From assembly GCF_014192285.1 (NCBI RefSeq), contig NZ_JACHXQ010000010.1:106098-130097 (forward strand): a stretch of DNA of 24,000 bases. The letters run 5' to 3'. Of this stretch, positions 351-19,803 are shown piece by piece; position 1 is the stretch's first letter, and every line of letters begins with the position of its first letter. The notes beneath the pieces are model-generated. The model searched no databases and had not been told where the DNA came from. It saw nothing but the letters and a program-made list of their open reading frames with translations. The stretch is from Halomonas fontilapidosi. Lineage in GTDB: Bacteria; Pseudomonadota; Gammaproteobacteria; Pseudomonadales; Halomonadaceae. Position numbers and translations under genes: made by a program.

Positions 351-1303
351 TTGTGCAGGGCCTCGGCGGCGCCCAGCAGGCCCGTCCAGGGCGCGGTGAC
401 TACCTGCACCGGGATGGCCCCGGTGTAGGCGCTCATGCGGCCCTTGGCGGTGAAGGCCTCGAGAAAGCGGCTCTCGGGGAGCCACTCGAGCAGCCTCGGG
501 AGGATGCCGCCGCACAGTGCGACACCGCCGCGGGCCCCCAGGGTCAGCGCGGCATCCCCGCAGACGTCGCCGAGGATCTTCAGGAACCGCAGCAGGGTAT
601 CACGCGCCACGGGGTCGCCGCCCGCCGCCGCCTGGGTGACCTCGGCAGGGCTGGCATGGCGTGGCGGAGCGCCCTTCAGCGAGCAGTGGGCCAGGTAGAG
701 GTCGAGCAGCCCCTGGCCACAGAGGATGCGCTCCACCGAGACACGGCCGTAGCGGTTGCGGAAGTGCCGCAGCAGGTTCTGCTCGCGCTCGTCGGTGGGT
801 GCGAAGGTCACGTGGCCGCCTTCGGTGGCCAGCGGGATCCAGGCGTGTCGGCCGGGAAACAGCCCGGCCACGCCCAGCCCGGTGCCCGGGCCGATCACCA
901 GCCGGGCGGCGTGGGGGACCGCCTCGCCGCGCTGCACGTGCACCAGGTCGTCGTCGGCCACGTGGGGCACACCCAGCGCCTGGGCGGTGAAGTCGTTGAT
1001 GACCTTGAAGAGGTCGAGCCCCAGTGTCTGCTGGACCGCCTCTCGGGAGAAGGTCCAGTGGTTGTTGGTCATGGTCACCCGGTCACCGCGGATCGGGCAG
1101 GCGAAGGCCAGGCAGGCCTCGCGGGGCGCGTGCTCGTCCACCGCCCCGACCCGGGCCAGGTAGTCGCGCACCGCCTCGACCAGGCCCGGGTAGTCGGCAC
1201 AGGGCAGGCTCTGGATGTTGCGGGGCGCAAAGGTATCCGGCGTCACCAGGGCGAAGCGGGCGTTGGTGCCCCCGATGTCACCGATCAGGGCAGGGCGCGT
1301 CAT
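335..1303 (-). CDS. glk: Glucokinase
   Basis: The ORF is 322 aa. Its N-terminus, [20 protein letters not shown], matches the Glk ATP-binding motif (GDxGGTNxRxAL). Its ATG directly abuts the edd stop (TGAATG on the minus strand at 1306..1301), the usual edd-glk arrangement. Confidence 0.9.
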
Positions 1304-3190
<1,887 letters not shown>

Positions 3191-3282
3191 GGCTCACCTC
3201 GAAATCGAGTGTCGGTTGTCTTGTAAACTTACCAATAAAATGTCCGGTTATCCGGCCATGCTACCCGTTATTCGGCAATTTT

Positions 3283-3297
3283 TGTAGTTTTATTACC
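3283..3297. promoter_or_regulatory. Possible HexR-type operator in the edd promoter region
   Basis: TGTAGTTTTATTACC matches the gammaproteobacterial HexR palindrome as I recall it (TGTAAT-www-ATTACA) at 11 of 15 positions. It lies in the AT-rich 132-bp gap upstream of edd. This is a by-eye match only. Confidence 0.25.
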
Positions 3298-3322
3298 GCC
3301 AATATGTTGCCGAAAGACCGGC

Positions 3323-4717
3323 TCAGAGACCCAGCAGGCGCAGCCACCAGCGACGCCAGGGCGGGTCGAGCAGCCCCGCGGCGTTATGACGTGCCTGCAG
3401 GAAGACGCTGCGCTGGTGAGTGAAGCGCAGGAAACCGGCCTCGCCGTGATAGGCCCCCATGCCGCTCTCGCCGATGCCGCCGAAGGGCAGGGCAGGCACC
3501 GTGTAGTGCCAGAGGGTGTCATTGAAGACCACACCCCCGGAGCGGGTCTGCTCCAGCAGTCGCCAGCGGCGGCCCGGGTCATCGGTAAAGGCGTAGAGCG
3601 CCAGCGGGCTCGGGCCGTCGGCGACCTTGGCCAGGGCAGCATCGAAGTCGCGCACGCCGATCACCGGCAGCCAGGGGCCGAAGACCTCCTCCTGCATGAT
3701 CGCCAGGTTGGCGGTGGGGTCGATCACCAGCGTAGGCGGCAGCTTGGCACCGTGGCCGAGTTCCAGGCGCTCGCCGAGCTCGATCACCCGGCAGCCATGG
3801 TCGCGCGCCTCGTCGAGCAGTCGCTCGAGGCGGCTGCGGGTGGCGTCGCCGGGCACCGCCGAGTAGTCATCGCTGGCCGTGCCGTGGGGATAGAAGTCCT
3901 TTACCACCCCGCGGATCGCCTCGATGAAGGCCGGCAGGCGTGCCGCATCGATCAGCACGTGGTCCGGCGCGATGCAGGTCCGGCCGGCATTGAGCCACTT
4001 GCCGAAGGCGATGCGCCGGGCGGCATGCGTCAGGTCGGCATCATCGGCGACGATGGCCGGGGCCTTGCCGCCGAGCTCCAGGGTGACGGGCGTGAGGTTG
4101 GCGGCCGCGGCCTGGGCCACCTTGCGGCCCACCCGGGGGCTGCCGGTGAACAGCAGGTGGTCGAAGGACAGGGCGGCGAAGGCTCTGCCGATGTCGGCAT
4201 CCCCGGTGACCACCTGCAGTTCCTCGGGCGCGAAATAGCGTTCGACCAGTTCAGCCAGCAGGGCGCTGGTGGTGGGGGTCTGTTCGCTGGGTTTGATCAT
4301 CACCCGGTTGCCGGCGGCCAGCGCATCCAGCGCCGGCATCAACGCCAGGCTCCAGGGGTAGTTGGCCGGGGCGATGATGCCCACGACCCCCAGCGGCTGG
4401 CGGTAGAGGCGCGCGCGGCCCGGCTTCAGCCGCCAGGGCACGGCGGCACGGCGGGGCGTCATCCAGCGCTTGAGGTGGCGGCGGGTGTGGCGGATGGCCA
4501 GCAGCAGCGGCACGACCTCCGCCAGACGTGTCTCGGCCTCGGCGCGGTGGCCGACGTCCTGGTGGATCGCCTGGGCGATCTCCTCGCGGTGATGGCGAGT
4601 CATGCGCGCCAGGCGGGCAAGGCGGTCGCGACGGATCGCCGCCGAGGGGAGAGGCTCGGCAGCGAAGGCCTGGCGCTGCCGGTCAAGGCGCGCCTGCAGG
4701 GCGCGGGCATCGGTCAT
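3323..4717 (-). CDS. NAD(P)-dependent aldehyde dehydrogenase, ALDH3 / coniferyl-aldehyde dehydrogenase-like
   Basis: ALDH motifs are present: ELGGKAP, the catalytic-Cys region GRTCIAPDHVLI, and EEVFGP. I place the start at Met18 of the track ORF (ATG at 4717..4715) because a GGAGA Shine-Dalgarno lies 5 nt upstream and MTDARALQARLDRQRQAF is a typical N-terminus for this subfamily. Confidence 0.85.
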   Translation of the reverse strand: MTDARALQARLDRQRQAFAAEPLPSAAIRRDRLARLARMTRHHREEIAQAIHQDVGHRAEAETRLAEVVPLLLAIRHTRRHLKRWMTPRRAAVPWRLKPGRARLYRQPLGVVGIIAPANYPWSLALMPALDALAAGNRVMIKPSEQTPTTSALLAELVERYFAPEELQVVTGDADIGRAFAALSFDHLLFTGSPRVGRKVAQAAAANLTPVTLELGGKAPAIVADDADLTHAARRIAFGKWLNAGRTCIAPDHVLIDAARLPAFIEAIRGVVKDFYPHGTASDDYSAVPGDATRSRLERLLDEARDHGCRVIELGERLELGHGAKLPPTLVIDPTANLAIMQEEVFGPWLPVIGVRDFDAALAKVADGPSPLALYAFTDDPGRRWRLLEQTRSGGVVFNDTLWHYTVPALPFGGIGESGMGAYHGEAGFLRFTHQRSVFLQARHNAAGLLDPPWRRWWLRLLGL

Positions 4718-4899
4718 GCACGTCTCCGTGTGTCGATGAGGATGGAAGGGGACTCGGGCACTGGGCACAATGTAGGCCTTCTGCCAACGGCTTGTCAGCT
4801 ATCGGAGCCGTCGCATAGGTGGCAGGGTTCGGGGCTGAGCCGTCGGCAGGCTGCCCCGGCGCCTCTCGCCTTGAATACCGGCATTTCCCAGGAGTCGCC

Positions 4900-6033
4900 A
4901 TGACCTCGCTCGTGCTGCACGAACTGCCCGCCATCGAGGCGGTACCCGCCGCGGCCTGGAATGCCCTGGTCGGCGACGATCATCCCTTTCTGCGCCATGA
5001 GTTCCTGCATGCCCTGGAAGCCAGCGGCGCGGTGAGTCCCGCTACCGGCTGGGTACCGCGCCACCTGACCCTGTGGCAGGACGCGGCGCTGGTCGGCATC
5101 CTGCCGCATTACCACAAGCACCACTCTTTCGGCGAATACGTCTTCGACTGGGGCTGGGCCGATGCCTGGGAGCGCGCGGGAGGTCGCTACTATCCCAAAG
5201 GGCTCTCGGCGATCCCCTTCACCCCGGCACCCGGGCCGCGGCTGGCCCTGGCCCCACATATCGATCCGCTGGCGGCGCGCCGAGTGCTGGCCGAGGCCTG
5301 GGAGGCCAGTGCGCTGTCGAGCTGGCACCTGCTGTTCGCCGAACCGGCCGAGGTCGATGCCTGGCAGGCGGCCTGTCCGTTGCTGCTGGCCCGCCACGGC
5401 GTGCAGTTTCAGTGGCACGACGCCGGCTTTGGCGACTTCGAGGGTTTTCTGGCCGCCCTGACCGCGAAGCGGCGCAAGGCAATTCGCCGCGAGCGGCGCC
5501 TGGTGGCCGAGCAGAGGCTGACCCTGCATCGCCTGGAGGGCGAGGCCATCGACGCCGCGGCGATGGCGCACTTCTTCCGCTGCTACGAGATCACCTACCT
5601 CGAGCGCGGCCGCCATGGCTACCTTGGCCTCGACTTCTTCGAGCGCCTGCGCCGAACCCTGCCCGAGTCACTGCTGCTGATCCAGGCCCGTCGCGACGGC
5701 GTTCCGGTGGCCGCCGCGCTCTGTCTGCAGGGGGCACGCACCCTCTATGGGCGTTACTGGGGCAGCGAGGTACTGGCCGACTGCCTGCACTTCGAGGCCT
5801 GCTACTACCAAGGCATCGAGCACTGCCTGGCGCGCGGCCTGACGCTCTTCGATCCCGGGACCCAGGGCGAACACAAGCTCGCGCGGGGGTTCGCGCCACG
5901 CCGGCTCACCTCGCTGCACCATATCGCCGACCCGCGGCTTCGCGATGCCGTGGCGCGCTTCTGTGCCGAGGAGCGTACCCACGTCGAAGCCTACTGTCGG
6001 GCAGCCGAGGCGGCGCTGCCCTACCGGAGTTGA
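4900..6033 (+). CDS. Conserved DUF482 / FemAB-like GNAT-fold protein
   Basis: The start is set at the ATG at 4900, which has a CAGGAG Shine-Dalgarno about 6 nt upstream. The N-terminal signature W-NALVGDDHPFLRHEFLHALEASGAV resembles the conserved (N/D)PFL-HEFL-ALE-SG motif of that family as I recall it. The family assignment was not verified by any search. Confidence 0.55.
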   Translation: MTSLVLHELPAIEAVPAAAWNALVGDDHPFLRHEFLHALEASGAVSPATGWVPRHLTLWQDAALVGILPHYHKHHSFGEYVFDWGWADAWERAGGRYYPKGLSAIPFTPAPGPRLALAPHIDPLAARRVLAEAWEASALSSWHLLFAEPAEVDAWQAACPLLLARHGVQFQWHDAGFGDFEGFLAALTAKRRKAIRRERRLVAEQRLTLHRLEGEAIDAAAMAHFFRCYEITYLERGRHGYLGLDFFERLRRTLPESLLLIQARRDGVPVAAALCLQGARTLYGRYWGSEVLADCLHFEACYYQGIEHCLARGLTLFDPGTQGEHKLARGFAPRRLTSLHHIADPRLRDAVARFCAEERTHVEAYCRAAEAALPYRS

Positions 6034-6260
6034 CCGAGTGACGACTGCTACACTCTCCCTGAGGAATGTAATCAGTATGTATCTCATACTTCAGCACCAA
6101 ATCGGTGACTTCGTTCGCTCGATACATTCAAGTCAACGATCAGCGAGTGGCAGTGATCGTCCTGAAAGGTCTCGTTCCCGGCTCCAGGTTACCGTTGTCG
6201 GGGAACTGGTCGTCTGCAGGTTGAATTTATCTCGCTGCCGCAGGGATGAGGTGAGTCGCC

Positions 6261-7640
6261 ATGGAAATGAAGCAACGTTGCTGGCTGGTGGCGGAGGATC
6301 CGGCAGCAGCAGAGCAGTTGGAAGCCAAGATCGACTCGATCGGCTGGAAAGTAAGGCGACTATCTCCGCCTCTTTTCAGCTCTCGCCTGGAGGAGGACAG
6401 AGAGTGCGGGGTCGGACTGGTTCTGCTCGATGGCATGGCGGATGCCCGGCTAGCTCAGCTGGAGGCAATGCTGCTCGAGAGCCACTGCCCCTGGATGGTG
6501 GTCGCGGCAGACGATGCGGTCGAGGACGCCAGCAGGCGACAACTGGTCGCCACGCTGTGTCATGCCGTGGTGGCACCGACCATCGACCTCGCCGAACTTG
6601 ACTGCTTGATGCGACATGCGTTGCCCCTATCACTGCTTCGGAGTGGAGACAGCAGGCCCTGTCACAGGGAGGCTGCCCTATCAGCTGACATGGCAGAATA
6701 TGAAATGGTGGGGACCAGCCCCGTGATGCGGTCCCTTTTCCAGGTCATCCGCAAGGTGGCAGCGGTGGAGGCACCGATCCTGATAGGCGGTGAATCCGGG
6801 ACAGGCAAGGAACTGACCGCCCAGGCGATTCATGAGCGTTCACCGCGGGCGTCATCGTCGTTTCATGCCATCAATTGCGGGGCCTTGCCGGACCACCTGA
6901 TCCAATCTGAGCTCTTCGGGCACGAGAAGGGGGCCTTCACCGGAGCGGTCCATCGCAAGATCGGCCGGATCGAGGCAGCCGACGGTGGCACCCTCTTCCT
7001 TGACGAGATCGGTGATCTGCCGCTGGAACTTCAGGTCAACCTGCTGCGCTTTCTCGAGACACAGAGCATCCAGCGCGTGGGCGGCCTGGAAGAGATCAGA
7101 GTCGATGTGCGCATCATCGCCGCCACCCATGTGGACCTCGAGGCTGCCATCGAGGAGGGGCGATTCCGCGAGGACCTCTACCATCGGTTGAATGTGCTGC
7201 ATGTCAGGGTGCCGGCACTCCGTGAACACCCTGACGATATCGAGGTGATGGCGCGTTACTTCTTCGACCGCTTTTCAGGAGAGAAGAGCGCCCGACTCAA
7301 GGGGTTTTCCCGCGAGGCGCTGGTGGTCATGCGCCAGTATGCCTGGCCCGGGAATATCCGTGAGCTGATCAACCGCATCCGGCGTGCCATGGTCATGTGC
7401 GAGAAACGCCTTATCCAGCCCAGGGATCTGGGCATCGAGCGTCGCAAGATCGTGCGCCATTCGATGACGCTCGATCAGGCCAGGGAGAGGGCAGAGCGAG
7501 AGGCATTGGTTGCCGCGCTGGAACGCAACGAGAGTAGGGTCCGTCCGGCGGCCCGGGAGTTGGGAGTCTCGCATGTCACCATCTATCGGCTGATGGAGAA
7601 GCACGATATTTCCCATCCGGGAGTAGAAGCCGAGGGCTGA
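6261..7640 (+). CDS. Sigma-54-dependent transcriptional activator (NtrC-family bacterial enhancer-binding protein) with a degenerate N-terminal receiver-like domain
   Basis: AAA+ motifs are present: Walker A GESGTGKE, the sigma-54 contact loop GAFTGA (6930..6947), Walker B LFLDEIG, RIIAAT and [12 protein letters not shown]-terminal Fis-type helix-turn-helix is present ([19 protein letters not shown]). A GAGGTGAG Shine-Dalgarno lies about 7 nt upstream of the start. Confidence 0.9.
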
Positions 7641-7691
7641 TCGGCTGATCGTATTATCTTTCCACCCTCCTGTACTGAGGATCTGCATGTT

Positions 7692-7720
7692 GCCTGATGG
7701 GCCTTCCATCAGGCTTTTTT
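7692..7720 (+). terminator. Rho-independent terminator of the activator gene
   Basis: There is a perfect 9-bp stem, GCCTGATGG (7692..7700) pairing with CCATCAGGC (7706..7714), and a 5-nt loop. It is followed by TTTTTT (7715..7720) and lies 52 nt after the stop codon. Confidence 0.8.
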
Positions 7721-7758
7721 ATGGCTGGTGCCAGGATCCAGTTCTGTGGGAAGAAGGA

Positions 7759-7781
7759 GGCGGTTCATGCATGAAACGGCC
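7759..7781. promoter_or_regulatory. Candidate upstream activator sequence (imperfect palindrome) for the sigma-54 activator
   Basis: GGCGGTTCATG|CATGAAACGGCC has 9 of 11 arm positions complementary around a CATG centre. The centre is about 166 bp upstream of the -24 GG, a typical enhancer distance. The functional assignment is inference. Confidence 0.3.
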
Positions 7782-7934
7782 TTCTCGAATTAAGCTAATT
7801 GTCTGATTTTGCAACATTCCTGACCTGAGATCCGTCTCCTGAGCGGGGAGGGAGGGAGGAGGGTTACACCTGCTTAACGGGGCCTGCCGAGGAGCTCTTC
7901 GCATTTAATCCAATAAAAACAGTGACTTAAATTT

Positions 7935-7950
7935 TGGCATGGCGTTTGCT
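7935..7950 (+). promoter_or_regulatory. Sigma-54 (RpoN) -24/-12 promoter of the fap-like operon
   Basis: TGGCATGGCGTTTGCT compared with the consensus TGGCACG-N4-TTGCW has one mismatch (C to T at position 6) and exact GG-to-GC spacing. It ends 46 nt upstream of the first operon ATG (7997). It lies downstream of a terminator and next to a sigma-54 activator gene. Confidence 0.8.
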
Positions 7951-7996
7951 CCCATCAGGGTAAGAACCGCATACGAGATGTTGAGCAGGTGTCGGC

Positions 7997-8431
7997 ATGA
8001 AGGTTAAGACTCAGATACAGCGACCCATGAGCAATCAGTGGATCACGGCAGCGATGCGCGAGTCTGCCAGCTACGGCCTTTGGCTAGCCGTGATGGTCGG
8101 TCTTCTCGGCGCCATGGTGGCCGTAGATACACGGCAGGATGCCCAGGCAGCAGAGGCGACGCTTGTCGAGGCCTCTTCCCCCGCGCTGAAGCCTGTAGAG
8201 GCATCCGATGCTGTGCGAATGGAGCCTCTCGATGACCCTTCGCTCCAGGCCGTTCGTGGTCGCCATGTCGATGCCGGGCACCTTGAAGGCAAGAGGAGCA
8301 ATTCGGTCATCCTCTGGGACGAGCGCGGGAAGGATACCCCGGCGGCTGGCAGCAAGAGTACCGTCAAGTCTCGCGCCACGGGAATCGGCAACCATCAGGA
8401 AGCCACCGTTACCACCCGCGGGGGGAGATAG
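7997..8431 (+). CDS. fapA: FapA-like small exported protein, first gene of the Fap-type amyloid operon (putative chaperone/modulator)
   Basis: The ORF is 144 aa, with an AGGTG Shine-Dalgarno 5 nt upstream. A hydrophobic segment YGLWLAVMVGLLGAMVAV is followed by AQA|AEA, which could be a signal peptide with a long n-region or a signal anchor. The rest is low-complexity and looks disordered. The assignment rests mainly on position and size within a fapABCDEF-ordered operon. Met11 or Met20 are alternative starts. Confidence 0.55.
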   Translation: MKVKTQIQRPMSNQWITAAMRESASYGLWLAVMVGLLGAMVAVDTRQDAQAAEATLVEASSPALKPVEASDAVRMEPLDDPSLQAVRGRHVDAGHLEGKRSNSVILWDERGKDTPAAGSKSTVKSRATGIGNHQEATVTTRGGR

Positions 8432-8433
8432 TC

Positions 8434-9156
8434 ATGGGCCTCATGAAACTGCTGGACAAAGACGTGAGAAAGGGCTCAGCACCGATGGCGATGCGGTACG
8501 GCAAGAAGGCCGGCAAGTTGGGCAGCCACACTCGAACATCAGGCGTGAGGGTCGCCACCAAACTGATGGCAGTTGCCTCTCTGTTGGCTGCCGGCATGCC
8601 ACTGGCCATGGCACAGCAAGAGTTGACGACGCGCAACAACAGCGCCCTCGACAGCAGCGCCCTCAGCAGGGTCACGGGCATCAGCACCACCAACCTGGCC
8701 GCTGGCGAGGGCAACTTGCAAAGCAACAGTGGTGCCATCTCCATCGGTGATGTCGCCACCACGGCCAACGCCCTACAGCAACGGTCACGCATCGAAGACT
8801 CACTCGTCGACCGGCAGGACAGCGTCAGTATTGAGGGCCGCGCCTATCGACATTCCGAAGGGTGGATGTCGATCAATCAGGCAGCGGGCCTGGGGAATGT
8901 GCAGAGCAACGCCTTCGAGGTGGCTCTGGGCATATCGGCCAGCAACCTGAGTGACAGCAGTCTTCAGCAGGTAATGGCCGATCAGCAGGGGCTGAATGGG
9001 ACCGAAGGTGATGATTCGGGAAAGTCTTCACGGAGGATCGAGGTCGACGAGACCACCTTCGAGGGCACCCGAGGTGTCATCCAGGTTAACCAGTCAGCCG
9101 GCACGGGAAACGCTACTCGCAACAGCTTCCGCATGAACATGTCGCTGGGAGAGTAG
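8434..9156 (+). CDS. fapB: FapB-like amyloid subunit (putative nucleator / minor fibre subunit) with three imperfect repeats
   Basis: A GGGGGAGA Shine-Dalgarno precedes the ATG at 8434, which lies 2 nt after the fapA-like stop. A signal peptide ends ...LLAAGMPLAMA|QQE. Three repeats share the core xG-x4-N-x-(A/S)AGxGNxxxN. Alternative starts at 8485 or 8491 would shorten an unusually long n-region of about 40 aa. The protein has no Cys. Confidence 0.75.
   Translation: MGLMKLLDKDVRKGSAPMAMRYGKKAGKLGSHTRTSGVRVATKLMAVASLLAAGMPLAMAQQELTTRNNSALDSSALSRVTGISTTNLAAGEGNLQSNSGAISIGDVATTANALQQRSRIEDSLVDRQDSVSIEGRAYRHSEGWMSINQAAGLGNVQSNAFEVALGISASNLSDSSLQQVMADQQGLNGTEGDDSGKSSRRIEVDETTFEGTRGVIQVNQSAGTGNATRNSFRMNMSLGE
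8653..8748 (+). repeat. FapB-like repeat R1 (coding)
   Basis: SSALSRVTGISTTNLAAGEGNLQSNSGAISIG. Confidence 0.7.
8836..8931 (+). repeat. FapB-like repeat R2 (coding)
   Basis: GRAYRHSEGWMSINQAAGLGNVQSNAFEVALG. Confidence 0.7.
9046..9144 (+). repeat. FapB-like repeat R3 (coding)
   Basis: DETTFEGTRGVIQVNQSAGTGNATRNSFRMNMS. Confidence 0.7.
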
Positions 9157-9208
9157 CGCAATCGCAACGCAGGAATCCGAACGATTCGGTTCATCCAGGA
9201 GGAAAGCC

Positions 9209-10261
9209 ATGAAGACGTTCCACAAGACTCCGCTTGCCATTGCCGTCGCCACACTCATGGTAGCGCCCTATGCGCTGGCTCAGGGAGACGGCAACAAGTT
9301 CGATACCAACAGCACCATCGATTCAGAACTCGATAACTCGATCGATGTCGATATCGACCATGCAACCAACAGCGACAGCGACTTCTATACCAGCGTGTTC
9401 ACGTTGAGCGTCGCGGATAACTATGCCGGTGCCACGGTCGACAGCAAGCAGCTGATCGATGGTAACTCTGTTACCAATGATGGCTCGGAGAACGACGCAA
9501 CGATGGGCGGTGACTCCTTGTCCGGCTCCTCGGGCAACATCGGTGCCAACGTGGCCGCCGGCGACAGCAACAGCCAGGCCAACGATGCGGCACTGGCCTC
9601 GTCGGACGCCGCGGAGGTATTCGGCCAGGCCGAAGCCTATTCCGCCCAGTCGGCCTCCGGCAATAGGGTCAGCAATATCGGCAGCTCCAATTCGGCCCAG
9701 CTGGGTGGCAACTCGCTGCAGGGCGCTTCCGGCAATATTGCGGCCAACGTTGCCGCCGGTGTCGGGAACGCCCAGCAGAACTCGCTGGCAGTGACGGAAA
9801 ACAGCGTCTCCGGCGATGCCAATGCCACCTCGGCTGGCGTCCAGTCAACCTATGGCAATGCCACCACCAACAGCCCAGTGAGCCGTGAGACGGGTGGCAC
9901 CGCCGAGGTTGATTATGACGTGACGCTGGATGCCAGTGGCCTGGTCATGCAGCAGCAGGAGCCCGTTGTGGTGCCGCGTCACGATGCTGATGCGCATTCT
10001 GAAGGCGAGACAACCGAAGGGCACAACGATCTTGCCGGCCTGGCCTTCCAAGGCGTCGAAGGGTCTAAGCTCGAGATGACCGTCAGCGGTGAGGTCCCCA
10101 CAACGGGGCCGACCTATACCGACCATCGCAACGACGCCTCCCTGGACGGCAGCGCCCTCAGTGGGGCCAGCGGTAACGTCGGTGCCAACGTGGCGGCAGG
10201 GACCAACAACCTGCAGCGCAACTCTCTCTCCATCGCCTCGTCAAGTGCCGGCGACAGCTGA
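9209..10261 (+). CDS. fapC: FapC-like major functional-amyloid subunit with three imperfect ~35-aa repeats and two linkers
   Basis: An AGGAGGA Shine-Dalgarno lies 5 nt upstream. The Sec signal peptide is MKTFHKTPLAIAVATLMVAPYALA|QG. The three repeats share the core SGN(I/V)(G/A)ANVAAGxxNxQxN, the same motif I recall from the Pseudomonas FapC repeats (SGN[IV]G[AV]N[IV]AAGxGNQQxN). Linker 1 is short and linker 2 is long, as in FapC. Confidence 0.85.
   Translation: MKTFHKTPLAIAVATLMVAPYALAQGDGNKFDTNSTIDSELDNSIDVDIDHATNSDSDFYTSVFTLSVADNYAGATVDSKQLIDGNSVTNDGSENDATMGGDSLSGSSGNIGANVAAGDSNSQANDAALASSDAAEVFGQAEAYSAQSASGNRVSNIGSSNSAQLGGNSLQGASGNIAANVAAGVGNAQQNSLAVTENSVSGDANATSAGVQSTYGNATTNSPVSRETGGTAEVDYDVTLDASGLVMQQQEPVVVPRHDADAHSEGETTEGHNDLAGLAFQGVEGSKLEMTVSGEVPTTGPTYTDHRNDASLDGSALSGASGNVGANVAAGTNNLQRNSLSIASSSAGDS
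9497..9601 (+). repeat. FapC-like repeat R1 (coding)
   Basis: ATMGGDSLSGSSGNIGANVAAGDSNSQANDAALAS. Confidence 0.8.
9695..9799 (+). repeat. FapC-like repeat R2 (coding)
   Basis: AQLGGNSLQGASGNIAANVAAGVGNAQQNSLAVTE. Confidence 0.8.
10136..10240 (+). repeat. FapC-like repeat R3 (coding)
   Basis: ASLDGSALSGASGNVGANVAAGTNNLQRNSLSIAS. Confidence 0.8.
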
Positions 10262-10306
10262 TCCTGCTCGCCAGCGCTTGGCAGCACGGCGATGCTGCAA
10301 CCCAAT

Positions 10307-10336
10307 CCCGGCCTGCTTCGGCAGGCCGGGTGTTCT
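10307..10336 (+). terminator. Intra-operon stem-loop after fapC-like (partial terminator / mRNA 3'-end stabiliser)
   Basis: A perfect 10-bp GC-rich stem, CCCGGCCTGC (10307..10316) pairing with GCAGGCCGGG (10321..10330), closes on a TTCG (UUCG) tetraloop and is followed by TGTTCT. It lies in the 107-bp fapC-fapD gap. A second 6-bp hairpin, GCAGCA-N6-TGCTGC, sits at 10281..10298. Confidence 0.5.
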
Positions 10337-10368
10337 ACCCCAGACGAGAGTGAGTCGAGGAGTCGCTC

Positions 10369-11073
10369 ATGCCAACCCGCCATCGATTCGCGCTAGGGGC
10401 CGTACTCCTGGGGCTCTTGCTCCCCTTTCTCGATGCTCAGGCAGCCAGTATGCGTCTGGGCAATGTCATGTCCGGCACGATGATCCATAAGGATGTCCAG
10501 TCCATCCGTGAACGTCGCTTCGAGAATATCGTCGAGCAGAAGACGGACTTCTCCTGTGGCGCGGCCTCGTTGGCCACCATTTTCCGGTATGCCTACCAGA
10601 AGCCCTCCGTCACGGAGGAGAGTGTCCTGGCTGGCATGCTCGAGGTCGCGGACCCCGAGCTGGTTCGTCAGCAAGGGTTTTCGCTGCTGGACCTGAAGCA
10701 CTACGTGGAGGAACTGGGCTATCGCGGCCGGGGGTACGAGGTGGCACCGCAAACCCTGGATGAGGTGTCGATCCCGGTCATCGTGCTGCTGGACCTGGAG
10801 GGCTACAAGCACTTCGTGGTGATGAAGAAGGCTAGCGGTGATCGTGTCTACGTGGGGGATCCGGCCCTTGGCAATCGCGTCATGGATCGCGAAGCGTTCA
10901 TGGACGCCTGGAACAACATCATTTTTGCCGTCGTCGGCGAGGGATTCGATCCGGGCACGGTACTGCTGGATCCACGGCAGCCGTTGACGGCACATCGCAT
11001 GCAGGATGTCTTCGCCCCGGTACCGAAGCAGAAGCTGCTGGATTTCGGTTTTCGTCATGCCGACCTCTTCTGA
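10369..11073 (+). CDS. fapD: FapD-like periplasmic cysteine peptidase, family C39 (stand-alone, Sec-exported)
   Basis: A GAGGAG Shine-Dalgarno precedes the start. The signal peptide is MPTRHRFALGAVLLGLLLPFLDAQA|AS. The C39 catalytic signature is intact: Gln57 and Cys63 in EQKTDFSCGAASLATI (Cys codon tgt at 10555..10557), and His148 and Asp164 in YKHFVVMKKASGDRVYVGDPALG. Confidence 0.85.
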   Translation: MPTRHRFALGAVLLGLLLPFLDAQAASMRLGNVMSGTMIHKDVQSIRERRFENIVEQKTDFSCGAASLATIFRYAYQKPSVTEESVLAGMLEVADPELVRQQGFSLLDLKHYVEELGYRGRGYEVAPQTLDEVSIPVIVLLDLEGYKHFVVMKKASGDRVYVGDPALGNRVMDREAFMDAWNNIIFAVVGEGFDPGTVLLDPRQPLTAHRMQDVFAPVPKQKLLDFGFRHADLF

Positions 11074-11120
11074 CCCCAGCGGGCCTGCAGGGGCTATCAG
11101 CCGAACAGGGGGTGACGATC

Positions 11121-11921
11121 ATGTTCAAGAAAGCGTGGCAACGTAATTGCAAGAAGGCAGGCCTCACGGCCTTGCTGGCGGTTTCCACGACGGGATTGGC
11201 GGCACCGGCCGAGGCCGCCACCTCGGACTTTGATGCCTTTACATCGAGCCGCGAGCTGAGTGATGCCGAGCTCGGACAGCAACGAGGACGGTTCGTCGAC
11301 AAGGGCAGCCTGATGTTCTTCGGGGTGCAGGTAACCAGCGAGTGGCGGACGTCCCACGGCGAGCACCTGGTGGCCCAGGGGGACTTGAGGGGGGATCTCA
11401 GCGGCGCAACACCCCGCGTGAGTTTTCAGCCGCGGATCACCGCAGTAGCGGCGGATTCCCTGGCCTCGGATGGCCTTGCGGGCAATGGTGCCACCGTCGT
11501 GGATGCCGGTACCGGCAACGCCGGCGGCGTGGTGCAGACCATCCAGGCGGCCGGGGATTTCAACGCCGCCGCCAACGACCTGCAGATCGATGTGCTCGAC
11601 GCCGCCGATGCCTCAGCTCCCCAGGGAGGGGGCGCTGCGAGCGGAAGCGCCGTCGAGCAACGGCTGGCATCCGGCACGCGAGTCTCGGTCAGCAATGGAC
11701 CCCAGGGCATGGGGGTTTCACTGGATGTCCCGGGCATGGGTCGCGTCAAGCAAGCCGTCGTTCCGAGTCAGGGGCTCCGTCAGTCGATCCAGTTGAGCAG
11801 TGACTTCCAGCAGGTGCGCAACCTTACGCGACTACAGCTCTATATGGGGGAGCGCGGTGCGAAGGCCGATGCGCCAGGCGTGCGCCGTGCCGTCCGCTCG
11901 GCGCGTCCCCTGGCTCCTTGA
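11121..11921 (+). CDS. fapE: FapE-like secreted protein (putative minor fibre component)
   Basis: The track ORF starts at the GTG at 11112. I prefer the ATG at 11121, which has a CAGGGGG Shine-Dalgarno about 8 nt upstream. The signal peptide is MFKKAWQRNCKKAGLTALLAVSTTGLAAPAEA|AT. The protein contains one segment resembling an amyloid repeat (see findings). The assignment rests on operon position, size and that segment. Confidence 0.6.
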   Translation: MFKKAWQRNCKKAGLTALLAVSTTGLAAPAEAATSDFDAFTSSRELSDAELGQQRGRFVDKGSLMFFGVQVTSEWRTSHGEHLVAQGDLRGDLSGATPRVSFQPRITAVAADSLASDGLAGNGATVVDAGTGNAGGVVQTIQAAGDFNAAANDLQIDVLDAADASAPQGGGAASGSAVEQRLASGTRVSVSNGPQGMGVSLDVPGMGRVKQAVVPSQGLRQSIQLSSDFQQVRNLTRLQLYMGERGAKADAPGVRRAVRSARPLAP

Positions 11922-12082
11922 GGAACCCTGAATCCGTGGATGGCTGGTCTACACACCGTCCGGGGTGAACGATAGGGTAGGAGAGTGCAGGCCACTGGTC
12001 GTGCCGGAAGAGGGGCGCGGCCAGTGTCGCTTGGCAGGAAGCTTCGGACCAATGATTTGATGAGCACACAGCGAGGTCATTC

Positions 12083-13141
12083 ATGCGGGATACGGCATCA
12101 CTCTTTTACGTTTCCATCGTGGCAGCATCGCTTGGAGCGGCATCGACGGCTCACGCCCAGATGGCCGATGACGAGGAAGAGGTGGTTCGCGAAGCCAGGC
12201 CCAGCAAGAGTGTCGAGAACGTCCTTCGCGAGGAGCATACCCTCTTCTCCGATCGGCTGACTATCGAGCCGGGCATCAACTACTCCTATTCCGATCGCTC
12301 TCAACTGGCCCTGCGGGGCTTTCTGGCTCTTGACGCCATCTTTCTGGGGGAGATCAGTGTCGATGCGGTCGAAAGCCACATCACGACTTTCGACCTGAAT
12401 ACCCGTTACGGCTTGACCGACCGGCTGGAACTCGGGGTGAACCTCCCCTTCGTTTACCGAACCAGTACGTACCAATCCATAGGTGATGATTTCTCTACCG
12501 AGAAGAACAGTGAGACATCCGTGGATGAAGCGGACCTCGGTGATATCAGCCTGTCACTCTCTTATCGGCTATTCCAGGAAACGGAGACCCGTCCCGATCT
12601 CGTCTGGAATCTTGGCGTGCGTGCGCCAACAGGCACCGATCCTTACGGGCTTGATGTGCGTCAGGACTCCAATACCAACCTGAATGTGCCCACGGAGCTG
12701 CCAACCGGTAATGGCGTATGGGGTGTCAACACCGGGGTATCGCTCCTCAAGACGCTGGACCCGGCCATCGTCTTTGCCAATCTCGGCTATACGTATAACT
12801 TCGAGGAGAGTTTTGATGATATCTCTGCGAGCGAAGGCAACCAGCCCGGGGATGTGAAGCTGGGGGATACCATTCGCGCTGGCTTCGGGACGGCCTTTGC
12901 GCTCAACGAGAACTTCAGCCTCTCGCTTTCCTACTCTCACGAATATATCCAGCAATCTGAAACAACCCAAGGCGGTGCTACCAGCAAAGTGGTCGGCAGC
13001 GACGCCAATGTCGGGGTGCTCAACCTGGGCGGGACCTACGCACTGGATGACAGCACCTCCATCGTCACCAGCCTGGGCGTGGGCCTCACCGACGATGCCT
13101 CGGACGTCAGCCTGACCTTCCGCATGCCCTTCCAGATGTAG
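12083..13141 (+). CDS. fapF: FapF-like outer-membrane beta-barrel secretion channel (Phenol_MetA_deg / PF13557-like barrel)
   Basis: A GAGG Shine-Dalgarno lies 6 nt upstream. The signal peptide is ...SIVAASLGAASTAHA|QMA. Most of the sequence shows the alternating amphipathic pattern of beta-strands (GINYSYS, LELGVNLPFVYR, GDISLSLSYRLF, GVNTGVSLLK, FANLGYTYNF, FSLSLSYSHEY, VGVLNLGGTYAL, VTSLGVGL, VSLTFRMPF), with an aromatic residue near the C-terminus. It is the last gene of the operon, as FapF is. Confidence 0.75.
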   Translation: MRDTASLFYVSIVAASLGAASTAHAQMADDEEEVVREARPSKSVENVLREEHTLFSDRLTIEPGINYSYSDRSQLALRGFLALDAIFLGEISVDAVESHITTFDLNTRYGLTDRLELGVNLPFVYRTSTYQSIGDDFSTEKNSETSVDEADLGDISLSLSYRLFQETETRPDLVWNLGVRAPTGTDPYGLDVRQDSNTNLNVPTELPTGNGVWGVNTGVSLLKTLDPAIVFANLGYTYNFEESFDDISASEGNQPGDVKLGDTIRAGFGTAFALNENFSLSLSYSHEYIQQSETTQGGATSKVVGSDANVGVLNLGGTYALDDSTSIVTSLGVGLTDDASDVSLTFRMPFQM

Positions 13142-13172
13142 ACGCCTCGGGAATCGATTACCCTGGGCTCAG

Positions 13173-13206
13173 GCAAGCCACCAACCTTGGTGGCTTGCTT
13201 GTTTTT
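13173..13206 (+). terminator. Rho-independent terminator of the fap-like operon
   Basis: There is a perfect 12-bp inverted repeat, GCAAGCCACCAA (13173..13184) and TTGGTGGCTTGC (13187..13198), followed by TTGTTTTT. A second hairpin follows immediately: TTTTCCCC (13203..13210) pairing with GGGGAAAA (13221..13228). Confidence 0.85.
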
Positions 13207-13351
13207 CCCCGCCCCCGGTAGGGGAAAAGCCGGCAGCAGGGTTCCGCTGCGTATCGATAGTCCCTGCCATGCTTCTGCCTGGCGCCTCGCCGCCCTGCGT
13301 CACAAGATGGCATAATGCCCGCCATCGACACCCTCGTGACGGACTCCCTGC

Positions 13352-13702
13352 ATGCTCAAGTGGCTGGCCATCGTGCTCATCATCCTGCTCGCGCTGCTGC
13401 AGTACCGGCTGTGGCTCGGCGAGGGCGGCATGCGCGAGCTTGCCGAGGTACGCCAGCGGGTGGCCGTGCTGGAGGAGGAGAACCAGCCGCTGCGCGACCG
13501 CAATGCGCGCCTGGCCGCCGAGGTGGTGGATCTCAAGACCGGCCTCGATGCCATCGAGGAGCGGGCCCGCAGCGACATCGGCATGGTGCGCACCGACGAG
13601 CAGTTCTTCTGGGTGCCCGGCGTGGCGGTGGAGACCACCGGCCTCGAGGTCAATGCCGGCCTGCTGGGCATGCCGGCCCCCGGCGCGGAGACGAGGCAGT
13701 GA
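13352..13702 (+). CDS. ftsB: Cell division protein FtsB
   Basis: The ORF is 116 aa, with an N-terminal transmembrane helix and a coiled coil. LLALLQYRLWLGEGGMRELAEVRQ...LDAIEERARSDIGMVRTDEQFF parallels E. coli FtsB (WLQYSLWFGKNG...ALEERARNELSMVKPGETFY). Confidence 0.9.
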   Translation: MLKWLAIVLIILLALLQYRLWLGEGGMRELAEVRQRVAVLEEENQPLRDRNARLAAEVVDLKTGLDAIEERARSDIGMVRTDEQFFWVPGVAVETTGLEVNAGLLGMPAPGAETRQ

Positions 13703-14454
13703 GCGGCCGCCTGTGGCTTGTGGTGCCCGCCGCGGGGCAGGGGCGACGCATGGGCGCCGACCGCCCCAAGCAGTACCTGCCGCTGGCCGGCCGGCCGGTG
13801 CTGGCGTGCACCCTGGCGCGCCTCCACGAGGCCTTCCCCGAGGCCCGGCTCTGCCTCTGTCTGGACGCCGAGGATGGCCACTTCGACCCGGCCTGGGTGC
13901 CCTTCGCCGACTGGCGTCGCGCCCCCGGCGGGGCCGAGCGGGTCGACTCGGTGGTCAACGCCCTGGAGGCCATCGCCCCGGAGGCCGAAGAGGACGACCT
14001 GGTGCTGGTCCATGATGTCGCCCGGCCCTGCGTCACCGTCGACGACCTGAGGCGCCTGCTGGCGGCCATTGCCGACGACCCCGTGGGCGGGCTGCTGGCG
14101 GCCCCGGTGGCCGATACCATGAAGCGCGACGATGGCGCCGGGCGGGTGCGGGCCACCGAGTCCCGCGAGGGGCTCTGGCATGCCTATACCCCCCAGGGCT
14201 TCCGCCATGGCCTGCTGTGTCGCGCCCTGAATGATGCGCTGGCGCGGGGTGTGGCCGTCACCGACGAGGCCTCGGCGGTGGAGGCGGTAGGCCTCTCGCC
14301 GCGGCTGGTCGGCGGGCGTCGCGACAACCTTAAGATCACCCATCCCGAGGACCTGGCCCTGGCCGAACTGGTGCTGTCGGCCCAGGCGCTGGCCGCCCAG
14401 ACGTCCTCGGTGACTCACCCCGAGGCGTCCCCGCATGGGACGAACGGAGCATGA
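13699..14454 (+). CDS. ispD: 2-C-methyl-D-erythritol 4-phosphate cytidylyltransferase
   Basis: The GTG at 13699 overlaps the ftsB TGA (GTGA). The N-terminus VSGRLWLVVPAAGQGRRMGADRPKQYLPLAGRPVL carries the IspD P-loop-like signature (PAAGxGxRM...PKQY). Later motifs include VLVHDVARP and KITHPEDL. Confidence 0.9.
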   Translation: MSGRLWLVVPAAGQGRRMGADRPKQYLPLAGRPVLACTLARLHEAFPEARLCLCLDAEDGHFDPAWVPFADWRRAPGGAERVDSVVNALEAIAPEAEEDDLVLVHDVARPCVTVDDLRRLLAAIADDPVGGLLAAPVADTMKRDDGAGRVRATESREGLWHAYTPQGFRHGLLCRALNDALARGVAVTDEASAVEAVGLSPRLVGGRRDNLKITHPEDLALAELVLSAQALAAQTSSVTHPEASPHGTNGA

Positions 14455-14472
14455 AGGGAGTATGAAACGCGC

Positions 14473-19682: not shown

Positions 19683-19803
19683 CCCTAAGGGTCAGCCAGT
19701 CGCCGAGGCAGGAGAAATGGGGTAACCATACAATAATAACGTCGCGCGTCGGTCGTCCGGCCTGGACTCACGACGCCTGGTCGCAACCATGGGGTAGCAA
19801 TTG

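What the first reader, a model, noticed from the sequence alone, without database searches (positions are those of the whole stretch)
7641..7996. Near-consensus sigma-54 promoter with enhancer-like architecture driving the amyloid operon
TGGCATGGCGTTTGCT (7935..7950) has one mismatch to TGGCACG-N4-TTGCW and the correct spacing. It sits 46 nt before the fapA-like ATG.

The 356-bp gap has the layout expected of an activator-dependent promoter.
- The terminator of the upstream activator gene (7692..7720) insulates the operon from read-through.
- An imperfect palindrome GGCGGTTCATG|CATGAAACGGCC (7759..7781) lies about 166 bp upstream of -24.
- Between them is an AT-rich stretch containing AATCAGacaaTTA (minus strand, 7796..7808), one mismatch from the IHF consensus WATCAANNNNTTR.

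The adjacent gene (6261..7640) encodes an activator with an intact GAFTGA loop. To my knowledge, RpoN/enhancer control is not the textbook description of fap expression. It would tie amyloid production to a specific signal rather than to constitutive or RpoS control.
Basis: partly seen in the sequence, partly recalled or inferred. Interest (0 to 1): 0.7.

Follow-up and report, generated by a model that had tools for sequence, protein, structure and literature searches.

The report
Sigma-54 enhancer promoter of Halomonas amyloid operon
The gap before the Fap amyloid genes of this Halomonas genome holds a real, evolutionarily conserved sigma-54 promoter with two activator-binding sites served by the neighbouring activator gene, but the same circuit (RpoN plus the activator BrfA) was already shown experimentally in Pseudomonas fluorescens, so this is a solid new example rather than a new mechanism.

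Summary
The window comes from Halomonas fontilapidosi.

**Promoter.** TGGCATGGCGTTTGCT (7935..7950) lies 46 nt before the first gene of a fapB-C-D-E-F operon. In an alignment of 17 Halomonadaceae upstream regions, the -24/-12 bases account for most of the invariant columns. A 0-1-mismatch motif sits at the same place in 34 fap loci, from Halomonas to Methylotenera.

**Enhancer.**
- There are two TGT-N12-ACA activator sites. The better-conserved proximal one (7862..7879) was missed.

**Activator.** The adjacent gene (6261..7640) has a VpsR-like N-terminal domain, an AAA+ domain with intact GAFTGA, and an HTH. It is 44-46% identical over its full length to the fap-linked activator found at the BrfA position in Pseudomonas.

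**Novelty.** RpoN/BrfA control of fapA-E was published for P. fluorescens in 2022 and 2024. This is a new member of a known kind, with a different gene order and a diverged sensor domain. No experiment exists for Halomonas.

The parts
6261..7640 (+). Enhancer-binding protein gene (459 aa). It has a VpsR-like N-terminal domain, a sigma-54 AAA+ domain with GAFTGA, and a Fis-type HTH. It is the homologue of the fap-linked activator BrfA of Pseudomonas.
   Evidence: Pfam gives Sigma54_activat at 2.4e-70, plus AAA_lid_14 and HTH_50/HTH_8. The VpsR domain scores 19.8 bits, below the 23.7 cut-off. The protein is 100% identical to a Halomonas fontilapidosi protein. It is 44-46% identical over about 446 aa to the EBP downstream of fapF in 15 Pseudomonas loci. 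All 14 sampled fap-linked EBPs share the VpsR + AAA+ + HTH_8 architecture.
7692..7720 (+). Intrinsic terminator of the activator gene
   Evidence: A perfect 9-bp stem (10 pairs counting G-U) is followed by T6. The free energy is -17.8 kcal/mol with z = -2.9. Hairpin-plus-T-run structures with different stem sequences sit at the same place in related loci.
7761..7778 (.). Distal activator site (UAS-2), CGGTTCATGCATGAAACG.
   Evidence: It is an inverted repeat. It matches 11 of 14 positions of TGTWWCA-N4-KKWWACA and starts at -174 from the TGGCA motif. Distal sites of this family lie at -161 to -176 in most related loci. In the PWM trained on proximal sites it scores only 4.3 bits.
7796..7808 (-). 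IHF-like box 1 (AATCAGACAATTA), between the two activator sites
   Evidence: It has one mismatch to WATCAANNNNTTR. The same box, on the same strand and at -137 to -140, occurs with 0-1 mismatch in 15 loci. It forms a conserved block in alignment A2.
7862..7879 (.). Proximal activator site (UAS-1), GGTTACACCTGCTTAACG.
   Evidence: It is the best PWM hit in the whole 24-kb window at 15.7 bits, although it was itself a training sequence. It is a conserved block in A2. A site matching >=12 of 14 positions lies at -69 to -94 in 48 of 54 fap promoters, against 0.5% of random 46-nt windows. In 37 non-training loci, hits are 170-350-fold enriched at the two expected positions.
7917..7929 (+). IHF-like box 2 (AAACAGTGACTTA), 5 nt upstream of the -24 element
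   Evidence: It has two mismatches in the window. It aligns with perfect WATCAANNNNTTR boxes in L001, L006, L009, L010, L015, L016, L023 and L028. In all, 22 of 54 loci carry a 0-1-mismatch box at -17 to -20 on the + strand.
7935..7950 (+). Sigma-54 (-24/-12) promoter, TGGCATGGCGTTTGCT
   Evidence: In the 17-sequence alignment T, G, G, C, A, G and T, T, G, C are invariant. A 0-1-mismatch motif lies 30-80 nt before the first fap gene in 34 loci, against a background of 0.033 per region.
7958..7962 (+). Predicted transcription start, about 12 nt downstream of the GC dinucleotide
   Evidence: This is inferred from the standard -24/-12 geometry and is not measured. A conserved GGnAAGAA block starts here in relatives.
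7997..8431 (+). First gene of the operon, at the fapA position (144 aa, with one hydrophobic segment and a conserved VILWDE motif)
   Evidence: It is conserved as the first gene after the promoter in Halomonadaceae, Methylotenera and others. It has no Pfam or NCBIfam hit. It shows no detectable homology to Pseudomonas FapA.
8434..13141 (+). fapB (8434..9156), fapC (9209..10261), fapD (10369..11073), fapE (11112..11921), fapF (12083..13141)
   Evidence: The best NCBIfam hits are FapB, FapC, FapD, FapE and FapF. All fall below the equivalog cut-offs, with FapC at 191 bits against a cut-off of 195. FapD carries Peptidase_C39. The gene order is conserved in 79 loci.
13170..13210 (+). Intrinsic terminator that closes the operon after fapF
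   Evidence: A 14-pair stem is followed by a T-run. No other terminator-like site and no sigma-70-like site lies between 9000 and 13600.

Best explanation
The region 7641..7996 is the regulatory region of the Halomonas fontilapidosi fap (functional amyloid) operon.

**Shown by sequence and comparison.**
- RNA polymerase carrying sigma-54 would bind TGGCAT-N6-TTGCT at 7935..7950.
- Transcription of the activator gene ends at the hairpin at 7692..7720, so the operon depends on its own promoter.

**Inferred mechanism.**
- The sigma-54 holoenzyme forms a closed complex that cannot open by itself.
- The product of 6261..7640 is a BrfA-type enhancer-binding protein with a VpsR-like sensor domain, an AAA+ ATPase with a GAFTGA loop, and a Fis-type HTH.
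- It binds as dimers to two TGT-N12-ACA sites. Their centres are at about -90 (7862..7879) and -191 (7761..7778) relative to the predicted start near 7960.
- IHF-type bending at two conserved boxes (7917..7929 and 7796..7808) brings the bound activator to the closed complex.
- ATP hydrolysis by the activator oligomer then opens the promoter, and fapA-position through fapF is transcribed as one unit ending at the terminator at 13170..13210.

**Input signal (weaker inference).** By analogy with BrfA the signal is most likely c-di-GMP rather than phosphorylation. The family has no conserved phospho-acceptor Asp, and no kinase gene is adjacent.
For: **Promoter**
- The motif, its spacing and its position are confirmed.
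- The -24/-12 bases are 10 of the 19 invariant columns of a 17-species alignment whose mean identity is 48%.
- A 0-1-mismatch motif precedes the first fap gene in 34 loci of diverse Proteobacteria. Pseudomonas carries the variant CGGCACnnCTTCTGCT.

**Link to the activator**
- 43 of 56 loci with a neighbouring EBP have a <=2-mismatch motif, against 4 of 15 without one (Fisher p = 5e-4). The background is 0.12 per region.
- Vreelandella fap loci lack the EBP, the fapA-position gene and the promoter together.

**Enhancer**
- A PWM built from Halomonas proximal sites finds sites in 37 independent loci that are 170-350-fold enriched at -60..-92 and -150..-182.
- 48 of 54 promoters have a >=12/14 site in the proximal window, against 0.5% of random windows.
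- 54 of 56 EBP-linked loci have at least one site.
- The spacing between the two sites falls into classes about one helical turn apart.
- The IHF-like boxes are sharply positioned.

**Activator protein**
- GAFTGA, Walker A and Walker B are invariant, and the protein aligns over its full length (44-46% identity) with the Pseudomonas fap-linked EBP.

**Experimental precedent**
- In P. fluorescens PF07, 5'-RACE placed the fapA start downstream of a -24/-12 element. rpoN and brfA deletions abolished fap expression and matrix formation (PMC9207406).
- BrfA is reported to regulate fapA directly and to sense c-di-GMP (PMC13101488, citing Guo 2024).

**Exclusions**
- No sigma-70-like promoter was found in 6000..13600.
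- No Rfam element was found in 7500..8200.
Against: - There is no experimental datum for any Halomonas.
- rpoN and the ihf genes are not in the window, so their presence in this genome is assumed.
- The window's own activator sites are weaker than the family norm. Both match 11 of 14 positions and lack the outer TGT/ACA bases. The chance of an 11/14 match in a random 46-nt window is 3.7%, and the distal site scores only 4.3 bits in the PWM.
- IHF-like box 2 has two mismatches here.
- The VpsR-like domain of this protein is below Pfam's threshold. Its most conserved motif (DFHTLP in other members) reads HAVVAP in this clade, so the c-di-GMP inference is weak.
- The loci compared are phylogenetically related, so the Fisher test and the counts overstate independence.
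- I could not read the paper that defines BrfA's DNA and c-di-GMP binding.
Confidence: 0.85

Rival explanations
1. The sigma-54 promoter is real, but it is activated by a different enhancer-binding protein. On this view the adjacent gene 6261..7640 regulates something else, and its linkage to fap is only positional.
For: EBP AAA+ domains are generic, and the closest NCBIfam models are unrelated regulators, all below cut-off. Some Halomonas genomes carry two paralogues of this EBP. Some fap operons have the promoter and activator sites but no EBP within 8 kb, for example L009 and the second operon of L001. Activation in trans is therefore possible.
Against: An EBP of the same architecture is linked to fap in 56 of 80 loci, in three different gene arrangements. 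That pattern is hard to explain without a functional link. Promoter, activator sites and EBP are lost together in Vreelandella. In P. fluorescens, deleting the fap-linked homologue brfA abolishes fap transcription.
Confidence: 0.07
2. The conserved TGT-N12-ACA palindromes, the IHF-like boxes, or both, are bound by another factor such as a repressor or a nucleoid protein. The activator would then work from other sites or from solution.
For: No binding data were available to me. The sites in the window are degenerate at 11/14. IHF-like box 2 lies unusually close to the -24 element, spanning -44 to -32.
Against: The sites occur at enhancer-typical distances, in pairs, and on preserved helical faces. 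They co-occur with the EBP in 54 of 56 linked loci against a background of 0.24 per region. The HTH region of the EBPs is conserved across the same taxa.
Confidence: 0.05
3. The motif is a chance match, and the operon is transcribed from an unrecognised sigma-70 or RpoS promoter.
For: Within the window alone the statistic is weak: 2 matches against 0.35 expected, with 3 of 100 shuffles doing as well. An rpoS gene lies in the same window at 19801..20817.
Against: The -24/-12 bases are invariant in 17 Halomonadaceae, and the motif is present in 34 loci at 0-1 mismatch. No sigma-70-like match was found in 6000..9000. The homologous Pseudomonas promoter has been mapped.
Confidence: 0.03

Closest known systems
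RpoN/BrfA control of the fapA-E operon in Pseudomonas fluorescens PF07 and SBW25 (Guo et al. 2022, PMC9207406; Guo et al. 2024, Microbiol Res 287:127864; Ru et al. 2026, PMC13101488)
   Same: There is a -24/-12 promoter directly upstream of the first fap gene. A fap-linked enhancer-binding protein has a VpsR-like N-terminal domain, a GAFTGA AAA+ domain and a Fis-type HTH, and is 44-46% identical over its full length. Paired TGT-N12-ACA sites lie at about -80 and about -162 from the -24 element in the Pseudomonas loci I fetched, and at -73 and -174 here.
   Different: **Gene order.** In Pseudomonas brfA lies downstream of fapF on the opposite strand. Here the activator lies upstream on the same strand and is separated by a terminator.

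**Promoter sequence.** It is nearer consensus here (TGGCAT..TTGCT against CGGCAC..CTGCT).

**Right half-site of the proximal activator site.** In most Halomonadaceae it reads GTTAACA (CTTAACG in this window) rather than TGAAACA.

**IHF-like boxes.** They are prominent in Halomonadaceae and mostly absent in Pseudomonas.

**First gene.** It is not homologous to Pseudomonas FapA.

**Sensor domain.** It is strongly diverged in this clade.
Classical IHF-assisted sigma-54 enhancer promoters (NifA/nifH, NtrC/glnHp2, XylR/Pu). This comparison is from my own knowledge, not tested here.
   Same: An upstream activator sequence with TGT...ACA ends lies roughly 100-200 bp upstream. An IHF consensus sits between the enhancer and the promoter. 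The activator carries GAFTGA.
   Different: The half-site spacing is N12, not the N10 of NifA. There are two IHF-like boxes, one of them ending only 5 nt upstream of the -24 element. The sensor domain is VpsR-like rather than GAF, REC or V4R.
VpsR (Vibrio cholerae) and FleQ (Pseudomonas aeruginosa), c-di-GMP-responsive EBP-like biofilm regulators
   Same: They control a biofilm matrix. The N-terminal domain matches Pfam VpsR (PF20161) in all 14 fap-linked EBPs sampled. The AAA+ domain is similar to that of FleQ and VpsR structures.
   Different: VpsR lacks a functional GAFTGA, and both VpsR and FleQ act on matrix genes with sigma-70 (my own knowledge; PMC9207406 makes the same contrast for FleQ). 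This protein keeps GAFTGA and sits next to a -24/-12 promoter.

Membership tests
BrfA-RpoN-fap regulatory module | A -24/-12 promoter immediately upstream of the first gene of the fap operon | tested here: met
   7935..7950, 46 nt before the ATG. It is conserved in orthologous loci, including Pseudomonas.
BrfA-RpoN-fap regulatory module | A fap-linked enhancer-binding protein homologous to BrfA (VpsR-like N-terminus, AAA+ with GAFTGA, Fis-type HTH) | tested here: met
   It is 44-46% identical over about 446 aa to the EBP at the BrfA position in 15 Pseudomonas loci. It has the same Pfam architecture, although the VpsR domain is sub-threshold in this protein at 19.8 against 23.7 bits. I could not compare it with the PF07 BrfA sequence itself.
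BrfA-RpoN-fap regulatory module | fap transcription depends on rpoN and on the activator | not testable with these tools
   This needs mutants or reporter fusions in Halomonas. It has been shown only for P. fluorescens.
BrfA-RpoN-fap regulatory module | The activator binds c-di-GMP | not testable with these tools
   The paper that defines this was not readable. The sensor domain is diverged in this clade.
BrfA-RpoN-fap regulatory module | [quoted passage not shown] | tested here: not met
   Here it lies upstream on the same strand. Across taxa the arrangement varies (upstream same strand, upstream opposite strand, downstream opposite strand), so it is not a defining trait.
Sigma-54 (-24/-12) promoter class | GG and GC dinucleotides exactly 10 nt apart within TGGCAC-N5-TTGCW, upstream of a gene and on its strand | tested here: met
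   GG is at 7936-7937 and GC at 7948-7949, with one mismatch.
Sigma-54 (-24/-12) promoter class | rpoN is present in the genome, and the start site is about 12 nt downstream of the GC | not testable with these tools
   Only the 24-kb window is available. There are no transcript data.
IHF-assisted enhancer | A WATCAANNNNTTR box between the activator site and the promoter, conserved in position | tested here: met
   The box at 7796..7808 (minus strand) has 1 mismatch, and 15 loci carry a box at -137..-140. The box at 7917..7929 has 2 mismatches, and 22 loci carry a box at -17..-20. IHF binding itself was not tested.
Fap functional-amyloid operon | fapB, fapC, fapD (C39 peptidase), fapE and fapF (outer-membrane channel) in that order | tested here: met
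   The best NCBIfam hits are FapB to FapF, all below the Pseudomonas-trained equivalog cut-offs. The order is conserved in 79 loci.
Fap functional-amyloid operon | The first gene is homologous to Pseudomonas FapA | tested here: not met
   phmmer finds no significant match to the Pseudomonas first genes. Profile-profile comparison gives a probability of 1.8%.

The most novel reading that the evidence does not exclude
The fap-linked VpsR-domain activator, together with its promoter module (two phased TGT-N12-ACA sites, two IHF-like boxes and a -24/-12 element), is an ancestral, portable regulatory cassette of Fap amyloid operons. It would span Gamma- and Betaproteobacteria and has so far been described only in Pseudomonas. 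In the H. fontilapidosi clade the sensor domain has diverged so far (DFHTLP motif replaced, Pfam VpsR sub-threshold) that it may respond to a signal other than c-di-GMP, for example one related to salinity.
Probability: 0.3. Interest if true: 0.45.

Novelty: new member of a known kind. Interest (0 to 1): 0.3.

Why it matters
Fap amyloids stiffen and waterproof biofilms. Knowing what switches them on shows how to trigger or block matrix formation.

This analysis indicates that the RpoN/BrfA circuit discovered in a fish-spoilage Pseudomonas is not peculiar to Pseudomonas. It appears to be the common control module of fap operons in Halomonadaceae, Methylotenera, Marinobacterium and others.

It also supplies a concrete, testable enhancer map: two activator sites, two bending sites and the promoter. 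That map could guide reporter constructs, and engineering of biofilm formation in Halomonas strains used industrially.

It adds no new mechanism.

Tried and rejected
- **Exact look-up of the activator protein** in the contig index found nothing. The organism was identified through the homology search instead.
- **The key BrfA paper** (Guo 2024) is not held. BrfA's published binding site and c-di-GMP-binding residues could therefore not be compared with my sites.
- **Riboswitch or leader RNA in the gap.** There is no Rfam match at E <= 1.
- **Alternative sigma-70 promoter.** No consensus-like site lies in 6000..9000 or 9000..13600.
- **The excess of sigma-54-like hits in the window** (8 against 4.6 expected at <=2 mismatches). 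Four of the hits lie on the minus strand inside fapB and fapC. They are the reverse complement of codons for the S/G-N-x-x-A amyloid repeat, not promoters.
- **Homology of the first ORF to Pseudomonas FapA.** It is rejected by phmmer and by hhalign.
- **Fixed GTT-N10-AAC pattern for the activator site.** It was too strict and missed many sites. I replaced it with a PWM and a 14-position degenerate consensus.
- **Solved-structure search.** It shows only generic AAA+ similarity (ZraR, NtrC1, FleQ, VpsR) and says nothing about the sensor domain.
- **A weak site upstream of the activator gene itself** (6067..6084, 8.6 bits). It is too weak to claim autoregulation.
Full report
**1. What is in the sequence**

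- TGGCATGGCGTTTGCT occupies 7935..7950 on the + strand, with GG at 7936-7937 and GC at 7948-7949. It has one mismatch to TGGCACG-N4-TTGCW, and 46 nt separate it from the ATG at 7997.
- A hairpin with a perfect 9-bp stem (7692..7714) followed by T6 lies 52 nt after the stop codon of the upstream gene. Its free energy is -17.8 kcal/mol, and only 1 of 200 shuffles folds as well.
- The palindrome CGGTTCATG/CATGAAACG is at 7761..7778.
- The reverse complement of 7796..7808 reads AATCAGACAATTA.
- Within the window alone the promoter statistic is modest: 2 matches at <=1 mismatch against 0.35 expected. The second match (8722..8737, minus strand) and three of the 2-mismatch hits lie inside fapB and fapC. 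They are the reverse complement of codons for the S/G-N-x-x-A amyloid repeat (read in frame).

**2. Gene context**

- The window is from Halomonas fontilapidosi. The 459-aa product of 6261..7640 is 100% identical to a protein of that species.
- That protein has Sigma54_activat (2.4e-70), AAA_lid_14 and HTH_50/HTH_8 domains. A sub-threshold VpsR domain sits at its N-terminus.
- Downstream lie a 144-aa ORF with no family hit, and then genes whose best NCBIfam hits are FapB, FapC, FapD (C39 peptidase), FapE and FapF. All fall below the Pseudomonas-trained equivalog cut-offs.
- The only terminator-like site between 9000 and 13600 is a 14-pair hairpin at 13170..13201 followed by a T-run, just after fapF. 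No sigma-70-like promoter match occurs anywhere in 6000..13600.
- No Rfam family matches 7500..8200.
- The simplest reading is one transcription unit, 7997..13141, bounded by two intrinsic terminators.

**3. Comparative test of the promoter**

- A FapD alignment was used to scan one genome per species. It returned 79 fap loci from Halomonadaceae, Amphritea, Methylophaga, Marinobacterium, Methylotenera, Polaromonas, Pseudomonas and others. I mapped the Fap genes and activator homologues in each locus.
- A 0-1-mismatch -24/-12 motif precedes the first fap gene in 34 loci, counting the window. Pseudomonas loci carry the variant CGGCACnnCTTCTGCT at the same place.
- The background rate of 0-1-mismatch motifs is 0.033 per region of that size.
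- In an alignment of 17 Halomonadaceae upstream regions with 48% mean column identity, T-G-G-C-A, G and T-T-G-C of the motif are invariant. They make up most of the invariant columns.
- TGGCAT, the window's variant, recurs in about a dozen orthologous promoters, so the single mismatch is tolerated.
- Among 56 loci with a neighbouring activator, 43 have a <=2-mismatch motif, against 4 of 15 loci without one (Fisher p = 5e-4). The loci are related, so this overstates independence.
- Vreelandella fap loci lack the activator, the fapA-position gene and the motif together. They have a different conserved upstream sequence.

**4. The enhancer**

- *Two activator sites.* Aligning the upstream regions revealed a conserved 18-bp element, TGTWWCA-N4-KKWWACA (TGT-N12-ACA), in two copies.
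- *Independent support for the sites.* A PWM trained only on the Halomonas proximal copies was scanned over 1.2 Mb. In 37 loci not used for training, its hits are 170-350-fold enriched in two narrow windows, -60..-92 and -150..-182 from the start of TGGCA.
- *Frequency.* With a simple 14-position consensus, 48 of 54 promoters have a >=12/14 site in the proximal window and 34 of 54 have one in the distal window. Only 0.5% of random 46-nt windows reach that score.
- *Co-occurrence with the activator.* 54 of 56 activator-linked loci have at least one such site within 1.3 kb upstream, against a background of 0.24 per region.
- *Phasing.* The distance between the two sites clusters at 78-84, 90-94 and 100-104 bp. 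These classes are about one helical turn apart, which suggests that relative phasing matters.
- *In the window.* The proximal site is GGTTACACCTGCTTAACG (7862..7879) and the distal site is CGGTTCATGCATGAAACG (7761..7778), 101 bp apart. The proximal, better-conserved site was missed.
- *Weakness of the window's sites.* Both are weaker than the family norm. Each matches 11 of 14 positions and lacks the outer TGT/ACA bases. The distal site scores only 4.3 bits in the PWM.
The other lies on the + strand at -17..-20 in 22 loci. In the window the second box is AAACAGTGACTTA (7917..7929), with two mismatches, and it aligns with perfect boxes in close relatives.
- *Caveat.* Binding by IHF is an inference from the consensus.

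**5. The activator**

- An activator homologue lies next to fap in 56 of 80 loci, in three arrangements:
  - upstream on the same strand, as here and in most Halomonas, Methylophaga, Marinobacterium and Methylotenera;
  - upstream on the opposite strand;
  - downstream of fapF on the opposite strand, as in Pseudomonas, Billgrantia and Aidingimonas.
- The Pseudomonas proteins, which sit where brfA is described, are 44-46% identical to the window protein over about 446 residues.
- All 14 sampled members match VpsR, Sigma54_activat, AAA_lid_14 and HTH_8.
- GAFTGA, Walker A (GESGTGKE) and Walker B (DE) are invariant. No acidic residue is conserved in the N-terminal domain, so a phospho-relay input is unlikely. 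No kinase gene is adjacent.
- In the window's clade the most conserved N-terminal motif of the family (DFHTLP) reads HAVVAP.

**6. Mechanism**

*Shown.* The promoter, the two activator sites, the two boxes and the GAFTGA activator are conserved and positionally linked. A terminator insulates the operon from the activator gene.

*Inferred.* Sigma-54 holoenzyme forms a closed complex at 7935..7950. The activator binds the two TGT-N12-ACA sites. Bending at the IHF-like boxes brings it to the polymerase, and ATP hydrolysis opens the promoter with a start near 7958..7962.

*Weaker inference.* The signal is c-di-GMP, by analogy with BrfA.

**7. What is already known**

- A 2018 review still stated that the fap operon encodes no regulator and called for study of its regulation (PMC6173800).
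- In 2022 Guo et al. mapped the fapA start by 5'-RACE in P. fluorescens PF07 and found a -24/-12 element. They showed that rpoN and brfA deletions abolish fap expression and matrix formation (PMC9207406).
- Their 2024 paper, which I could not read, is cited as showing that BrfA is an enhancer-binding protein that regulates fapA directly and senses c-di-GMP. It is also cited as showing that BrfA-type factors are widespread in Pseudomonas (PMC13101488).
- A 2026 preprint treats the BrfA-RpoN pathway as established for SBW25.
- I found no paper in the held library on fap regulation in Halomonas.

**8. Verdict**

- New here:
  - the extension of the circuit to Halomonadaceae and several other lineages;
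  - the different gene order;
  - the consensus and phased two-site layout of the enhancer, with its IHF-like boxes;
  - the co-loss of activator and promoter in some lineages.
- This makes it a new member of a known kind, of moderate-to-low interest to a specialist. It comes with a ready-made experimental map.

Noticed in passing
window 8722..8737, 8941..8956, 9533..9548, 9566..9581 (minus strand): Sigma-54-like motifs on the antisense strand inside fapB and fapC. Read in the gene's frame, they encode the S/G-N-x-x-A amyloid repeat (for example AGC AAC AGT GGT GCC = S N S G A). They are a coding by-product, and they explain the apparent excess of motif hits in the window.
   Followed up: yes
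window 18462..19682 and 19801..20817: A LysM + M23 peptidase gene (nlpD-like) is followed by a full-length sigma-70-family gene carrying regions 1.2, 2, 3 and 4. The nlpD-rpoS arrangement suggests that rpoS lies about 6.7 kb downstream of the fap operon. A dihydroxy-acid/6-phosphogluconate dehydratase, an aldehyde dehydrogenase and a FemAB-like gene flank the island upstream.
   Followed up: partly
window 7997..8431; A4 versus A5: [quoted passage not shown] It shows no detectable homology to Pseudomonas FapA (hhalign probability 1.8%). Many Halomonas loci also have about 500 bp of extra sequence, possibly another ORF, between this gene and fapB. The window lacks it.
   Followed up: partly
L001 (Halomonas sp. 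NO4) 9540..10000 and 9980..15688: Two fap operons lie in tandem. The second has its own terminator, distal site, proximal site (GGTTTCATTAAGTTAACA at 9847), IHF-like box and a perfect TGGCACGGCGATTGCT at 9918, but no second activator gene. The first operon of L001 appears to lack fapF.
   Followed up: partly
L015, L021, L022, L026, L028 (Aidingimonas, Billgrantia), about 700..5300: Upstream of the fap operon lies a second cluster. It holds a distant FapD-like peptidase, a FapF-like channel (33-39% identity; NCBIfam has FilB/FilC pilus models related to FapD/FapF) and its own divergent activator paralogue. These loci therefore carry two VpsR-type activators.
   Followed up: no
L024, L025, L027, L029-L031 (Vreelandella and relatives), about 900 bp upstream of fapB: These fap loci have no activator within 8 kb, no fapA-position gene and no -24/-12 motif. 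They share a different conserved upstream sequence containing TTGACAAATATCAGGTGTGC, which suggests a different mode of control.
   Followed up: partly
L045 9586/9781/9861, L049 9553, L056 9260, L070 9732, L072 10300, L042 5433: Activator-site-like PWM hits cluster near the fapE/fapF boundary in several loci. This may mark a second regulated promoter for fapF. In PF07, fapF was reported not to be co-induced with fapA-E. No such hit occurs in the window's fapE-fapF gap (11922..12082).
   Followed up: no
window 6067..6084: A weak activator-site-like sequence (TGTAATCAGTATGTATCT, 8.6 bits) lies in the gap upstream of the activator gene. It may hint at autoregulation, but it is too weak to claim.
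   Followed up: no
all promoter loci: The spacing between the two activator sites falls into three classes (78-84, 90-94 and 100-104 bp) that differ by about one helical turn. Pseudomonas and Methylotenera use the short class. The window, Billgrantia and several other Halomonas loci use the long class.
   Followed up: partly
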